Part shown: in pieces, positions 5,519-10,317 of the stretch | How positions within the stretch are numbered: position 1 is the first letter of the stretch | How the letters are laid out: each line of letters opens with the position of its first letter | NCBI GenBank assembly: GCA_964648855.1 | Contig: CAZYLT010000039.1 | Coordinates: 1-10,317 of the forward strand | DNA: 10,317 bases | Source: an uncultured archaeon | GTDB taxonomy: Archaea > Asgardarchaeota > Thorarchaeia > Thorarchaeales > Thorarchaeaceae | Direction: 5' to 3' | Made by a program: the position numbers and the translations under genes | Notes under the pieces: generated by a model | Databases searched by the model: none | What the model saw: the letters and a program-made list of their open reading frames with translations, nothing else | Told to the model about the DNA's origin: nothing

Positions 5519-5972
5519 ACCACACAGACTTTTATCGTTTTGATACATTAACTACAGTGAACGCCTCTAAGTGGTGTTCTAACTTGGAGCCTAGTCTTCT
5601 GTACAGGGCCTCAGGAAACAATCCTGCTCTGACAGCCCTTGCTATTGACTTCAAGTGTAAGCGACTAGCATGCGGTGTAGCGAATGCAGAAGATATCCTT
5701 CCTGATACAAGAAGGGGGGAACCTCAACGCGTTATCAACGGGCATGAGGGGATTATATCTGGCCTTCAATTCATAAGAAGAACGCCTCGCGCCTTATGAG
5801 TTCCAGCTGGGATAGAACACTGCGAATATAGGACTCGGCTTCATGCGAACTATGTTCCTCCTGTACATGTAGGAATGGCATATCATTTGATATTTTGCAT
5901 CCGTCGGGTGGTCACATATGAACAACCGATTTTACGGGTTCTCTAATCTCCTGGATAATTGCTCTCCAGTGA
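5515..5972 (+). pseudogene. WD40-repeat protein pseudogene/remnant
   Basis: First frame: ...LTALAIDFKCKRLACG...DTRRGEPQRVINGHEGIISGLQF. After a -1 shift near 5772-5795: KKNASRLMSSSWDRTLRI*DSAS (TAG 5829-5831 where the WD tryptophan is expected) ...LHPSGGHI*TTDFTGSLISWIIALQ* (TGA 5919-5921; final TGA 5970-5972). Confidence 0.75.
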
Positions 5973-5984
5973 ACAGCAATGTCC

Positions 5985-6521
5985 CTATTTTTCCAAACGG
6001 ATATCGACATCAAAATATCCCTCTTTGTTCCACTTGAAACGTACCCGCTCAAATTTCTTTTTACCGGTTCGAATTTCTTCTAAAACTTGGGCATTCTTGT
6101 TGCGGCTATATTTGTCAAATGGCAACGGAACTTCTTCTTCTGAAGTCTTAATAATAATGGCCTTCTTTCCAACTTCAACTATTGGTGTAGAAAACCTCAA
6201 CTCACCCTCTTCAAAAGATGGAACCTTGTCCCGTAGGTTTCGAAGATATTTTGCCTGTGCCTTATGTCTTCGAATTTCAAGCCTAGCAGAGGTCAGTACA
6301 TCTTGGAAGTATTCAGGACGAACATCAAATTTTCCGTAGAATTTGTTTCTCAGCCCCTCCAAGATTTCTTCCTGATTACGTGGAGGCTCTCCGAAGATCG
6401 CAACAATAAGGTAATTGGTTGCACCTGCATATTTTTCGAGTTCAGCATCGACAATATCCTGCTTCTGTCGAGTGAGTGGAACAGTAGATAGTTCTACTAC
6501 TTCAGTTTCTGTGTCAGACAT
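5985..6521 (-). CDS. hypothetical protein resembling the N-terminal (WED+REC) half of TnpB/Cas12f, lacking RuvC (178 aa)
   Basis: Start at MSDTETE (ATG 6521). Pattern: strand VVELSTVP, helix LTRQKQDIVDAELEKYAGATNYLI, helical region LRNKFYGKFDVRPEYFQDVLTSAR, basic linker, PSF, then a beta-rich end (IIIKT..VPLPF..ERVRFKWNKEGYFDVDIRLEK). The CDS is solid; the family call is pattern recognition only. Confidence 0.6.
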   Translation of the reverse strand: MSDTETEVVELSTVPLTRQKQDIVDAELEKYAGATNYLIVAIFGEPPRNQEEILEGLRNKFYGKFDVRPEYFQDVLTSARLEIRRHKAQAKYLRNLRDKVPSFEEGELRFSTPIVEVGKKAIIIKTSEEEVPLPFDKYSRNKNAQVLEEIRTGKKKFERVRFKWNKEGYFDVDIRLEK

Positions 6522-6594
6522 CTGCTTCACACAATAATCAGATGGAACATACCTAATCAATTTAGTTCTTGGAGAAATCTCTACCGAAATCTAT

Positions 6595-7617
6595 TCACAG
6601 TCTATTTACAATGAACGTCGCTTCACCGATTGCTCTCTCAATACCCCTAGGCTGCATGTCATAGCCTCCATATTCGGAAATAATCTCATCATAGAACTCC
6701 TTTTCGTTCTCTCTGAGGAATTCTAGAAGTGAATCTTCTTGTTCAAAAGATGTGTCAGAAAGCATGAGTAGTGCCATCCCAATCATGGGGATGCATCGTC
6801 TGATTTCCAACATTGCTAATTCATTGTCACCATTTATGGTCAGCCCATTTGCACCATAGTAATACCGTTGTGCCTGAGTGAGTAGAGCTATAACTTCTTC
6901 TTCTGTTCTATCTTCCCGTTCAAATCTCTCCACGGCCTCGATAAGCCATTTCTTCAAGTCATCAAGAATTGTCATAAGCCGGTTTTCACTGACGCCTTTG
7001 AGCTTAAAGGCTCGTAGAAACAGCTGAGATGAAACTGGGTCTAGCATTCTTAGCTCTGAGAAAACCTCTGCGGGTTTGATGATGGAGAAATTGTTGTTCC
7101 GCATTAGGACCAGCCTAGCTAGTCTGAGAATACCCAAGCGCATAGCATAGCTAGCGCTAGCCGTGTCCCCCTTTTCTAGGAAAACCTTGGCACAGCCAAA
7201 TGATTCTAGAATGCTTTCTTTTTCTCTCTCCATCACTTCCTCAGGCCATGTATAGTCCTGCACACGAGTGAGCCAATCGGCCAGTAGTTGGTCAGGGTCA
7301 TATTCAATCCGTGCACTACGTAGCCTGCTAATCACACCAGCAACTTCGAATGCATCAGTGGCTTCGTGTTGGAGGACAACCTCTATGCCCTCTGGTGTCA
7401 TGAAGTCCATATCTATGAGCACTCCTTTATGACGCGCGATTAATCTTGCTGGAGCTTCATCCTCATTCCAAATGATAGCAATATCTAGGTCCGAGCTTAT
7501 TGTTGCTGTCCCGCGAACGTAAGACCCATACACGAAAATCCCCCTGACCTCTTCACGTGACTTCCATTCTTCTACGGTATCTTGTAATGACTGTTCAAAT
7601 TTACGACGCACATCCAT
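6595..7617 (-). CDS. Pol-beta superfamily nucleotidyltransferase (MNT/KNTase-like) fused to two HEPN-like helical domains
   Basis: hGSYVRG-x5-SDLD signature plus third Asp (IDMDF); C-terminal helical segment duplicated. Start 7617 (7620 or 7635 also possible). Confidence 0.8.
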   Translation of the reverse strand: MDVRRKFEQSLQDTVEEWKSREEVRGIFVYGSYVRGTATISSDLDIAIIWNEDEAPARLIARHKGVLIDMDFMTPEGIEVVLQHEATDAFEVAGVISRLRSARIEYDPDQLLADWLTRVQDYTWPEEVMEREKESILESFGCAKVFLEKGDTASASYAMRLGILRLARLVLMRNNNFSIIKPAEVFSELRMLDPVSSQLFLRAFKLKGVSENRLMTILDDLKKWLIEAVERFEREDRTEEEVIALLTQAQRYYYGANGLTINGDNELAMLEIRRCIPMIGMALLMLSDTSFEQEDSLLEFLRENEKEFYDEIISEYGGYDMQPRGIERAIGEATFIVNRL

Positions 7618-7779
7618 CACGGCTGAAATACACATCCTGGCAAGTTGAGGAATACTCTAGACTACTATATACCTCTTACAATAATATGACTTTGCCCTGT
7701 GTATCTACGTCTGAAATCCCTAACGGCATCCGACAGTGATTAATAGGGGAATCTATCTGTGTTTCTTGAGGATGATTGT

Positions 7780-8481
7780 TTGACTCGCATCGATGGTAGA
7801 AATAATGACGAATTGCGCCCAGTTACAATCCAACGTGACTATCTCAAATATCCGGAGGGCTCTGTTCTGATAGCCACTGGAGAAACAAAGGTGATATGCG
7901 CCGCAACAGTTGAAGAGAGCGTTCCGAACTGGTTGAATGGACGTGGAGAGGGCTGGGTGACAGCGGAGTACGCAATGCTCCCTCGAGCAACTGACGAACG
8001 AACGAACCGATTTCGCCATAGTGGGAGGGCAAGGGAGATACAACGCATGATTGGCAGGTCTCTGCGTGCTGCTGTGGACATGGTCAAATTGGGAGAACAC
8101 CAGATTCGGATAGACTGTGATGTGATTCAGGCTGACGGTGGTACTCGAACTGCGTCTGTTACGGGGGGTTATGTTGCGCTTGTTGATGCTCTTCGGTACA
8201 TGGTAGATATGAACATGATTCCAGATATGCCGCTGAATGGCAACCTCGCTGCAATCAGTGTGGGCGTTGTAGATGGAGACCCTCTCTTGGATCTCTGTTA
8301 TGCTGAGGATTCAGTTGCTGACGTTGACATGAATATTGTCATGCTTGATGACGAGTTTGTTGAATTACAAGGTACTGGCGAAAACTCAACCTTCGACCGA
8401 GATGTCCTAGATGACATGCTAGAACTGGCTCAAAGAGGGATTCAAGAGCTCGTAGAAATACAGCTCTCCTCTTGGCAATAG
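7780..8481 (+). CDS. rph: ribonuclease PH (bacterial type)
   Basis: RxDGR..ELRP, GWVTAEYAMLPRAT, SGRxxEIQRMIGRSLR, CDVIQADGGTRTASVTG, DLCYAEDS.ADVDMN, ELQGTGE. TTG start at 7780 preceded by GAGGATGA. Confidence 0.95.
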   Translation: MTRIDGRNNDELRPVTIQRDYLKYPEGSVLIATGETKVICAATVEESVPNWLNGRGEGWVTAEYAMLPRATDERTNRFRHSGRAREIQRMIGRSLRAAVDMVKLGEHQIRIDCDVIQADGGTRTASVTGGYVALVDALRYMVDMNMIPDMPLNGNLAAISVGVVDGDPLLDLCYAEDSVADVDMNIVMLDDEFVELQGTGENSTFDRDVLDDMLELAQRGIQELVEIQLSSWQ

Positions 8482-9020: not shown

Positions 9021-9351
9021 GCGCACACAGCTGTGATGCCTCATAGCGTGTGTTTGGTCCGATTCCAGCATATTTTTGCTGGTTGAACGACCATCGGGAC
9101 CAGACGTAATCATGGAGTCATTTCCGGTGGAGGACCGTCAATACATCCCCTTGGTGCCGTGCACCCCTGTTTATTTGCAGGTAAAAGAGGCGAGATGTGG
9201 CGATTGCAGAGGATGAAGGCAGATCATATACACTGTAGTGTATGAAAACTCGATACAAATTCCAAACTAAATTAGATTAGGTTATTACAATCCTTGGCTG
9301 TTCAGCGTCAGCTGCGCAACAGGTATTACGTTGCCGGCTGCATGACTAGAA
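9021..9351 (+). other. structured 5' external spacer / leader of pre-23S rRNA
   Basis: Non-coding, with a series of stem-loops at 9023-9053, 9054-9103, 9143-9198, 9228-9243 and 9309-9340. Confidence 0.6.
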
Positions 9352-10317
9352 CTGCAAATGCTGTACAGCTGCTGGTGGATGACTTGGTTGGTTAACTGAT
9401 GAAGGGCGCGACAAGCTGCGATATTCTACGGGTAGGCGCATGAAGCCGTTGATCCGTAGGAACCTGAATAGGACTTCCACATGTGGGTTAATACCCTGCA
9501 TGATTCCAGGGTCAAATCTGGAAGGGGAACGCTCGGAATTGAAGCATCTTAGTACGGGCAGGAACAGAAATCAACTTAGAGATTTCCCGAGTACTGGCGA
9601 AAGAAAGGGAAAAAGGCCAAACCGAATCCGAGAGCGAAGAGTTCTCGGAGATGTGGTGTGAGGGCCTGAACATTACATGCCGACGCATCTAAGCCAAAGT
9701 CGTCTGGAACGACGCGGCAGAGAGGGTGATACCCCCGTAGGCGTAAACTGCGGGCATGGTTCAGGATCCCGAGTAGCATGGGTTGGACATCTCGTGTGAA
9801 CGTCCCAGCCGCAATCTGGGAAGCCTAAATATTCAACCAAACCGATAGTAGACTATGTAGCGCGAGCGAAAGTTGAAAAGTGCCGCGGAAGCGGGGTGAA
9901 AAGCACCTGAAACCAGTAGTTTAAACAAAGGATGCTGATGAAAAGAGAAGATGCTCTGAGAACGAATCAGGAGGGATCCTGTAGTAGGACCAGAGCGGAT
10001 CGAATCAGCATCATCCGTCTTGAAACACGGGCCAGGGAGTTCATGTACGTGGCGAGGATAAGGCGTCAAGCCGAAAACGAAGGGAAACCAACAAGTCCGC
10101 AGCCTTCGGGCGAGGGACGGGGTGTGAAAAGTGCCCGTAGTCACAGACATGACACGAGAAACCAGTCGATCTAGGCCTGGTCAGGGTGAAGCCGGGCGAA
10201 AGCTCGGTGGAGGCCCGAGAGGGTTCTGACGTGCAACTCGCTCCGTTGAACTGGGCCTAGGGGTAAAAGGCTTATCTAGACTGGTGATTGCTCGTTCTCC
10301 GCGAAGTTGGTCGTAGC
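9352..10317 (+). rRNA. rrl: 23S rRNA, archaeal, 5' portion (runs off the window end); 5' end approximate
   Basis: Conserved LSU blocks: GGTGGATG (9374), GATGAAGG..CAAGCTGCGATA, GAAGCATCTTAGTAC, CTAAATA..ACCGATAG, GTGAAAAGCACCTGAAACC, archaeal CCGTCTTGAAACACGGGCCAGGGAG, GTTCTCCGCGAA. Confidence 0.97.

What the first reader, a model, noticed from the sequence alone, without database searches (positions are those of the whole stretch)
5985..6521. Stand-alone RuvC-less TnpB/Cas12f-like protein: candidate domesticated RNA/DNA-binding factor
Seen: an intact 178-aa ORF whose order of elements (N-terminal strand, long helix ending in ATNY, helical bundle, basic linker, PxF, beta-sheet ending YFDVDIRLEK) stops where the RuvC-I GxDxG strand would follow in TnpB. 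No RuvC or Zn-finger remnant was recognised downstream, and no tnpA or IS-end hairpins nearby. Known: IS200/IS605 TnpB and Cas12f use WED/REC for TAM recognition and guide binding, and nuclease-dead derivatives such as TldR keep an inactivated RuvC. Inference: complete loss of the nuclease lobe in a clean, non-mobile context suggests domestication into a regulator or nucleic-acid-binding module with a guide RNA in trans, or none.
Basis: partly seen in the sequence, partly recalled or inferred. Interest (0 to 1): 0.8.

Follow-up and report, generated by a model that had tools for sequence, protein, structure and literature searches.

The report
Nuclease-less TnpB recognition half, domesticated
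A small, conserved, single-copy gene of one family of Asgard (Thorarchaeota-type) archaea encodes only the DNA/RNA-recognition half of the transposon nuclease TnpB; the cutting half is gone, so a piece of an RNA-guided nuclease seems to have been kept as a host nucleic-acid-binding protein whose job is still unknown.

Summary
The ORF is real. It lies on the minus strand at 5985-6521 and encodes 178 aa. No Pfam, NCBIfam or PDB sequence search named it. An AlphaFold model (pLDDT 91.9) superposes end to end on the WED+REC lobe of Cas12f and TnpB (Z 13.2 and 10.4). The 30 best chains of 48,161 are all Cas12, TnpB or Fanzor, and the next chain scores Z 4.9. Profile comparison with archaeal full-length TnpBs gives 97.6% probability over 168 columns. 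The protein stops at the WED/RuvC boundary, and only 19 bp separate it from a convergent gene, so no RuvC or zinc-finger remnant remains.

It is not a lone truncation. One intact copy sits at the same syntenic place in 79 of 85 genomes (16 of 16 genera) of one family, and in 0 of 315 other genomes of the phylum. dN/dS is about 0.17. Mobile TnpBs in the same genomes vary from 0 to 45 copies.

The sister-family outgroup has the neighbouring nucleotidyltransferase but not this gene. A near-invariant ATTGATTAG box lies 30-35 nt before the start codon in 19 of 23 loci, so the gene probably has its own promoter. Function is inferred only: nucleic-acid binding without cutting.

This scan reached the same reading for this family on other genomes. 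I found no paper describing it.

The parts
5985..6521 (-). CDS of the 178-aa recognition-lobe-only (WED+REC) protein derived from TnpB
   Evidence: ORF. AF2 model pLDDT 91.9. Fold matches Cas12f/TnpB N-lobes. hhalign against archaeal TnpB 97.6%. Orthologues in 79/85 genomes of the family.
6483..6500 (-). WED strand beta-1 (residues 8-13), followed by the conserved L-T-R-E-K-Q turn
   Evidence: DSSP on the model. V14, L16 and K20 are invariant in the alignment.
6252..6470 (-). REC helical bundle (residues 18-90, three long helices), inserted between WED beta-1 and beta-2
   Evidence: Same insertion point as in ISDra2 TnpB (PMC10097598). Eight genera carry a ~50-aa insertion between helices 2 and 3.
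5994..6203 (-). WED beta-barrel strands 2-7 with a flanking helix pair (residues 107-176). Conserved S111, P134-x-D-K-x-x-R140, R159-x-R161, G168, R175
   Evidence: The superposition ends at TnpB residue 175 of 8h1j_A.
6552..6561 (-). Conserved box ATTGATTAGG, 31 nt upstream of the ATG. Probably the gene's own TATA-like promoter element, possibly an operator
   Evidence: Within 2 mismatches of ATTGATTAG in 21 of 23 orthologous loci, ending 30-35 nt before the chosen start codon in 19 of them. Not enriched genome-wide.
6595..7617 (-). Upstream co-directional neighbour: 340-aa KNTase-like nucleotidyltransferase (pol-beta NTase head plus helical bundles). Conserved neighbour; a functional link is not shown
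   Evidence: Pfam NTP_transf_2. AF2 pLDDT 91.5. Foldseek hits to ANT(4')/KNTase and HalB. Adjacent in all 23 loci. Present without the WED/REC gene in outgroup G025.
5572..5966 (+). Convergent downstream WD40-type gene, broken in this assembly. It leaves only 19 bp after the WED/REC stop, so no room for a guide RNA or RuvC remnant
   Evidence: tblastn of the 299-aa orthologue of the sister genome: N-terminal part at 5572-5828 and C-terminal part at 5793-5966 in another frame, with about 495 bp missing. Intact ~298-aa gene in most other loci.

Best explanation
The gene encodes an immobilised, domesticated derivative of an archaeal TnpB that keeps only the recognition lobe. That lobe is the WED oligonucleotide-binding barrel with the REC helical bundle inserted in it.

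Shown here:
- The fold and the sequence profile place it with the N-terminal lobe of TnpB/Cas12f.
- RuvC, the zinc-finger (TNB) domain, the transposon ends and any adjacent guide-RNA space are gone.
- It is a single-copy, syntenic gene under purifying selection in one Thorarchaeota-type family.
- It most likely arrived after that family split from its sister, downstream of a pre-existing nucleotidyltransferase gene.

Inferred:
- It cannot cut. It acts by binding nucleic acid.
- In TnpB the TAM DNA duplex sits in the WED-REC cleft, whereas the guide-RNA scaffold also needs the missing RuvC surface. So the most likely mode is guide-independent reading of a short double-stranded DNA motif, or of a structured nucleic acid, as a regulator or chromatin-type factor.
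- It is probably transcribed from its own conserved promoter box.

My odds: TnpB-derived recognition lobe about 0.9; domesticated host gene about 0.85; binds nucleic acid without a cis-encoded guide about 0.5.
For: Fold:
- AF2 model pLDDT 91.9, pTM 0.85.
- Foldseek against PDB: the top 35 hits are all Cas12f, TnpB or Cas12k, best E 7e-7.
- An exhaustive aligner over 48,161 chains puts only Cas12, TnpB and Fanzor in the top 30. Values are Z 13.2 to AsCas12f residues 0-209 and Z 10.4 to ISDra2 TnpB residues 1-175. The next chain scores Z 4.9.
- ESM Atlas TM 0.72-0.76 to TnpB clusters and to clusters carrying the archaeal MJ0013 domain.

Sequence:
- The family profile finds only 22 proteins among 1.8 billion. 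One is a genuine 389-aa TnpB, collinear, E 6.7e-4.
- hhalign 94.8% to that protein and 97.6%, E 3e-12, over 168 columns to a 27-member archaeal TnpB alignment.

Domestication:
- 79/85 genomes of the family and 16/16 genera carry the gene, against 0/315 in other families. There is one intact copy per genome in all but one, and no stops.
- The gene order RNase PH / NTase / this gene / (WD40) / M28 / FAD / GNAT is the same in all 23 loci examined.
- dN/dS is 0.165 at dS 0.86.
- Mobile TnpB copies vary from 0 to 45 per genome.
- Outgroup G025 has the NTase but a 102-aa membrane protein downstream of it.

Plausibility of nucleic-acid binding:
- Orthologues have pI 9-10.6.
- Invariant basic residues are K20, R159, R161 and R175; R97, K137 and R140 are conserved in at least 90% of sequences.
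- The roles of the domains in TnpB come from PMC10097598.
Against:
- This genome's own protein is near neutral (pI 7.8), unlike its orthologues.
- I could not map conserved residues onto the TAM cleft, because no residue-level superposition was available.
- Sequence similarity to TnpB is remote (about 18% identity). The four resident TnpBs of this genome do not match at all.
- hhalign places the last strand (GYFDVDIR) on the RuvC-I motif (GYxSIDxN) through two 7-residue gaps. The structural superpositions instead end about 15 residues before the catalytic Asp. The exact truncation point is therefore unsettled.
Confidence: 0.7

Rival explanations
1. RNA-guided but nuclease-less. The lobe still loads a guide RNA encoded elsewhere in the genome and targets DNA for repression, as TldR or Cas12m do.
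For: - In Cas12f dimers the second protomer contacts the guide RNA largely through its N-lobe. Several solved chains show only about 195-200 ordered residues, and these match this model best (7wju_B, 9nzp_B, 8dzj_B).
- WED strands contact omega-RNA stem 4 in TnpB (PMC10097598).
Against: - In TnpB the scaffold and pseudoknot are held between WED and RuvC, and the heteroduplex channel is formed with RuvC. Both are missing here.
- There is no non-coding space next to the gene: 19 bp downstream and 46-272 bp upstream.
- No Rfam family matched in the window apart from LSU rRNA.
- No conserved RNA was sought elsewhere in the genome.
Confidence: 0.12
2. Subunit of an RNA 3'-end module. The lobe recruits a nucleic-acid substrate to the upstream KNTase-like nucleotidyltransferase, opposite RNase PH.
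For: - NTase and this gene are adjacent and co-directional in all 23 loci. RNase PH is divergent from them in most loci.
- The NTase is almost confined to the same family (80/85).
Against: - The whole ~8-kb region is syntenic, so adjacency is weak evidence.
- The outgroup keeps the NTase, with RNase PH about 3 kb away, but has no WED/REC gene.
- A conserved box at a fixed distance from the start suggests a separate promoter.
- The NTase's nearest folds are small-molecule and oligo-dA enzymes (ANT(4'), HalB), not RNA tailing enzymes.
Confidence: 0.1
3. Anti-transposon decoy. The lobe competes with resident mobile TnpBs for their TAM sites or omega-RNAs and so dampens transposon activity.
For: - Most genomes of the family carry mobile TnpBs (35 of 40 genomes at 90% completeness or more).
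- A recognition lobe without a nuclease is the classic design of a dominant-negative protein.
Against: - Five genomes that are 91-95% complete have the gene but no TnpB TNB-domain match.
- The four resident TnpBs of this genome (557-623 aa) show no profile similarity to it in the N-lobe.
- The nearest TnpB relatives come from other archaeal phyla.
Confidence: 0.06
4. Not derived from TnpB. It is either a decaying fragment, or an independent or ancestral OB-plus-helical-bundle protein that only resembles the TnpB N-lobe.
For: - Pfam, NCBIfam and PDB sequence searches give no hit.
- Short 'transposase (fragment)' ORFs of the same fold are common in databases.
Against: - Fragment: about 80 intact, same-length, syntenic orthologues and dN/dS 0.17.
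- Independent origin: profile-profile probability 97.6% with a collinear alignment, and an exclusive fold-match list with a gap from Z 7.1 to Z 4.9.
- Ancestral: confined to one family and absent from the sister family at the same locus.
Confidence: 0.03

Closest known systems
TnpB of IS200/IS605-type elements (ISDra2 TnpB, PDB 8H1J/8EXA; by sequence the archaeal 'MJ0013-domain' TnpBs such as P0026)
   Same: The whole protein equals the TnpB REC lobe. It is a seven-stranded WED barrel with the REC bundle inserted after strand 1, and it is collinear with TnpB residues 1-175.
   Different: - No RuvC, no TNB zinc finger, no C-terminal domain, no omega-RNA locus, no transposon ends and no TnpA.
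- Single copy and immobile.
- REC has three long helices rather than four.
TldR (TnpB-like nuclease-dead repressors) and other exapted inactive TnpBs (Altae-Tran et al. 2023, PMC10691335; PMC10705468)
   Same: TnpB-derived, immobilised, kept by the host and unable to cut.
   Different: Those keep a mutated RuvC lobe and a neighbouring guide RNA. Here the whole nuclease lobe is deleted and no guide locus adjoins the gene. My searches of the held papers found no description of a stand-alone recognition lobe.
Cas12f (AsCas12f 8DZJ, SpCas12f 9I8Y), second protomer of the asymmetric dimer
   Same: These are the best structural matches (Z 13.2; Foldseek E 7e-7). In several maps only the N-lobe of protomer 2 is ordered, and it serves as an RNA/DNA-holding module.
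   Different: Cas12f protomer 2 is a full-length nuclease chain and is linked to CRISPR. No CRISPR array or partner nuclease is linked here, and the zinc-finger insertion of some Cas12f N-lobes is absent.
Other nuclease-less TnpB halves noted earlier in this scan (Acidimicrobiia, a bacterial secretion operon, a hot-spring phage)
   Same: The same design: recognition lobe only, conserved rather than decaying.
   Different: They are independent lineages in different contexts. They are AI notes, and I did not re-test those loci.

Membership tests
TnpB / Cas12 superfamily (RNA-guided nucleases) | N-terminal recognition lobe: WED OB-barrel with inserted REC bundle | tested here: met
   AF2 model plus Foldseek, VIA-align and ESM Atlas. 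hhalign 97.6% to archaeal TnpBs.
TnpB / Cas12 superfamily (RNA-guided nucleases) | RuvC (RNase H-fold) domain with D-E-D triad | tested here: not met
   The protein ends at the WED/RuvC boundary. No PF01385 match. 19 bp separate it from the next gene.
TnpB / Cas12 superfamily (RNA-guided nucleases) | TNB / zinc-ribbon domain (PF07282) | tested here: not met
   No match in any of 24 family members. The protein has no cysteines. The genome's PF07282 matches lie on other contigs, in full-length TnpBs.
TnpB / Cas12 superfamily (RNA-guided nucleases) | Guide (omega/cr) RNA encoded at the 3' end of the gene or next to it | tested here: not met
   No non-coding space downstream. No Rfam match. A guide encoded in trans was not searched for.
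IS200/IS605 mobile element | Multiple or variable copies, subterminal hairpins, TnpA partner | tested here: not met
   One copy at one syntenic locus. No flanking inverted repeats. No Y1 TnpA in the genome.
TldR-type nuclease-dead TnpB repressors | Retained but inactivated RuvC lobe plus an adjacent guide RNA that targets a promoter | tested here: not met
   RuvC is absent, not mutated. No adjacent guide locus.
Pfam PF27234 (MJ0013, N-terminal domain of archaeal TnpBs) | Match to the family HMM above its threshold | not testable with these tools
   The model is not in the local Pfam copy. Indirect evidence: TM 0.75 to an Atlas cluster in which 92% of members carry PF27234, and the TnpBs matched by profile all carry it.

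The most novel reading that the evidence does not exclude
This would be a guide-free DNA-motif reader made from the TAM-recognition lobe of TnpB. On this reading the conserved ATTGATTAG box, which contains TTGAT and sits 30-35 nt before the start codon, is a relic of the ancestral transposon's target/TAM site. It would now serve as the operator through which the protein controls its own promoter and a small regulon. That would be a new class of archaeal transcription factor born from an RNA-guided nuclease.
Probability: 0.15. Interest if true: 0.8.

Novelty: new variant of a known kind. Interest (0 to 1): 0.6.

Why it matters
Known domestications of TnpB (Cas12 effectors, Cas12k, Cas12m, TldR) all keep the two-lobed body and a guide RNA. 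A recognition lobe kept on its own, across a whole archaeal family, would show that the WED/REC module can work as an independent nucleic-acid-binding unit. That would widen the list of what transposon nucleases are recycled into.

It also offers a natural minimal TAM/PAM-reading domain of about 180 aa for structural and engineering work, and adds a lineage-specific factor to Asgard archaeal biology. The function is still unknown, so the value depends on the binding experiments.

Tried and rejected
- Pfam, NCBIfam, PADLOC and PDB sequence searches with the single protein, with every family member and with the profile gave nothing meaningful.
- hhalign against the four resident TnpBs of this genome found no similarity.
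- Complex prediction of the NTase with this protein returned 'no answer' (score 0.00). This counts neither for nor against binding.
- PF27234 could not be run locally.
- I asked whether the ATTGATTAG box is a common promoter or a multi-copy operator:
  - The exact 9-mer occurs 35 times against 39 expected.
  - Position-weight-matrix hits are no more frequent than with column-shuffled matrices, and only slightly more often 28-38 nt before ORF starts (3 against 0-1).
  - A crude k-mer scan of upstream regions gave no sharp general promoter consensus.
  - A few other genes carry the box at promoter distance. I did not follow them into other genomes, so promoter and operator readings cannot be separated.
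- I considered reading the last strand as the RuvC-I strand, as the hhalign tail suggests. I rejected this as the primary reading because two full-length structural superpositions stop about 15 residues before the catalytic Asp.
- I did not attempt a REC-lobe phylogeny to find the donor clade. At about 18% identity it would not be reliable.

Full report
**What is there**

The window is archaeal: a 5' part of an archaeal LSU rRNA lies at 9351-10317. The nearest named homologue of the target is a hypothetical protein of a 'Candidatus Thorarchaeota archaeon'.

The finding is a minus-strand ORF at 5985-6521 of 178 aa. The plus strand at these coordinates is full of stops. A longer 191-aa reading from TTG at 6560 is listed, but the extra residues are not conserved in orthologues. 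That TTG also lies inside a conserved DNA box. I therefore take the ATG at 6521 as the start.

**Fold and homology**

Single-sequence and per-member searches of Pfam, NCBIfam, PADLOC and PDB sequences gave nothing.

An alignment of 24 orthologues (A1) gave an AlphaFold model with mean pLDDT 91.9 and pTM 0.85. Its elements are one strand, three long helices, a linker, then six strands with two short helices.

- Foldseek against the PDB returned only Cas12f, TnpB and Cas12k chains in the first 35 rows, best E 7e-7.
- An exhaustive alignment to 48,161 representative chains put only Cas12, TnpB and Fanzor chains in the first 30 rows. It gave Z 13.2 to AsCas12f residues 0-209 and Z 10.4 to ISDra2 TnpB residues 1-175. 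The next, unrelated chain scored Z 4.9.
- The ESM Atlas search gave TM 0.72-0.76 over residues 4-178 to TnpB clusters and to clusters carrying the archaeal TnpB N-terminal domain PF27234.

According to the ISDra2 structure paper, WED is residues 1-12 and 117-176 and forms a seven-stranded barrel with a flanking helix. REC is residues 13-116, inserted after strand 1. RuvC begins at residue 185 with catalytic D191 (PMC10097598). The model therefore equals the complete recognition lobe and nothing more.

Sequence evidence agrees. The family profile, run against 1.8 billion representatives, found only 22 proteins. One of them is a genuine 389-aa TnpB (PF01385 + PF07282), matched collinearly at E 6.7e-4. 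hhalign gave 94.8% to that protein. It gave 97.6% (E 3e-12, 168 columns) to an alignment of 27 of its archaeal relatives, which itself matches solved Cas12f and TnpB at E 1e-24.

One detail is unsettled. hhalign places the terminal GYFDVDIR on the RuvC-I motif of those TnpBs by opening two 7-residue gaps. The superpositions on full-length chains instead stop about 15 residues before the catalytic Asp. Either way, at most one strand of RuvC survives.

**Not a fragment**

- In a sample of the phylum, 79 of 85 genomes of one family (16 of 16 genera) carry the gene. All but one have a single copy, and none has a stop. The six genomes without a match are 65-88% complete. None of 315 genomes of other families has it.
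- All 23 loci I fetched show the same order: RNase PH, then divergently the nucleotidyltransferase, this gene, a convergent ~298-aa WD40-type gene (absent in two lineages), an M28 peptidase, an FAD oxidoreductase and a GNAT.
- dN/dS against the sister genome is 0.165 at dS 0.86. More distant pairs are saturated at silent sites.
- Mobile TnpBs in the same genomes range from 0 to 45 copies.
- This genome has four full-length TnpBs of 557-623 aa on other contigs, two broken ones, no Y1 TnpA and no stand-alone RuvC half.
- No hairpins flank the gene.
- The only longer relative, P0016 (377 aa), sits at the same locus. It carries a C-terminal helical-repeat extension, not RuvC.

**Origin**

The one sampled genome of the sister family has a 30%-identical orthologue of the nucleotidyltransferase, with RNase PH nearby. 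The gene downstream of that NTase is a 102-aa membrane protein. The simplest history is therefore this: a TnpB element inserted downstream of the NTase in the ancestor of the family, then lost its nuclease lobe and became fixed. This rests on a single outgroup genome.

**Surroundings and function**

The neighbouring 340-aa NTase folds confidently (pLDDT 91.5). It resembles kanamycin/ANT(4') nucleotidyltransferases and the oligo-dA synthase HalB. Its substrate is unknown. The complex prediction gave no answer.

Between the NTase stop and the start of this gene (46-272 bp), 21 of 23 loci carry a box within two mismatches of ATTGATTAG. In 19 of them it ends 30-35 nt before the chosen start codon. 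In this window it is at 6552-6561. Comparable conserved boxes precede the NTase and RNase PH genes. The plainest reading is that the gene has its own promoter. That weakens the 'operon with the NTase' idea.

The box is not enriched in the genome. It contains TTGAT, which is the TAM of ISDra2. A TAM-relic operator is therefore possible, but it is untested.

In TnpB, the TAM duplex lies in the WED-REC cleft, while the guide scaffold and the heteroduplex channel also need RuvC. The orthologues are basic, with pI 9-10.6, although this genome's copy is at 7.8. Together these make guide-independent binding of DNA or structured RNA the most likely activity. This is inference, not observation.

**Known or new**

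Exapted, inactive TnpBs and TldRs are described, but they keep the RuvC lobe and a guide (PMC10691335, PMC10705468). Full-text searches for RuvC-less or truncated natural TnpBs, and for Asgard + TnpB + WED, found no description of this family.

Earlier follow-ups in this scan reached the same reading for this family on two other genomes. They also noted independent nuclease-less TnpB halves in other lineages.

I class it as a new variant of a known kind. The identity is well supported and the mechanism is open.

Noticed in passing
window 5572-5966 (+): The convergent WD40-type beta-propeller gene is broken here. It is intact (~298 aa) in most related genomes. About 495 bp coding for residues ~86-241 are missing, and the two remaining parts are in different frames. 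This is either a real pseudogene or a collapse of WD repeats in the assembly.
   Followed up: partly
window 7759-8481 (+): A bacterial-type RNase PH (PF01138 + PF03725) in an archaeal genome. It is conserved at this locus across the family and is also present in the sister-family outgroup. The listed GTG start probably lies too far upstream, because a conserved promoter-like box (GTGATTAATAGG) falls just downstream of it, inside the 5' end of the listed ORF.
   Followed up: partly
window 6595-7635 (-): A 340-346-aa nucleotidyltransferase with a pol-beta head and two long helical bundles. It is fold-similar to ANT(4')/KNTase and to HalB. It is almost confined to this family plus one sister-family genome, and its substrate is unknown. 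Orthologues start at MDVRRKF, so the true start is probably 7617, not 7635.
   Followed up: partly
about 50-80 nt upstream of the NTase start in L003-L022 (not clear in the window itself): A strongly conserved box AGATAG(C/T)TTTATTGA precedes the NTase gene in most genera. A CTATTAAT box on the other strand precedes RNase PH. Promoter-like elements seem unusually well conserved in this lineage.
   Followed up: no
G000 contigs C4, C21, C19, C28 (loci L024-L027): Four large TnpB-like proteins (557-623 aa, about 46% identical to each other) with long, divergent N-terminal regions and long C-terminal tails. The genome has no Y1 TnpA.
   Followed up: partly
L032 5001-6134 (protein P0016): A divergent orthologue at the same locus carries a ~185-aa C-terminal extension of helical repeats (repeated DRPWE...VPRIA units) fused to the WED/REC lobe. 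In that lineage the WD40 gene is absent.
   Followed up: partly
window 9351-10317 (+): A 23S rRNA gene starts here with no 16S gene in the preceding 9 kb, so the rRNA genes appear unlinked.
   Followed up: no
G000 C17:9510, C8:43758, C55:2266, C5:94945 (gene starts): A few unrelated genes carry a close copy of the AGATTGATTAG box 31-48 nt before their start codons. They could be chance, a promoter subclass or a small regulon.
   Followed up: no
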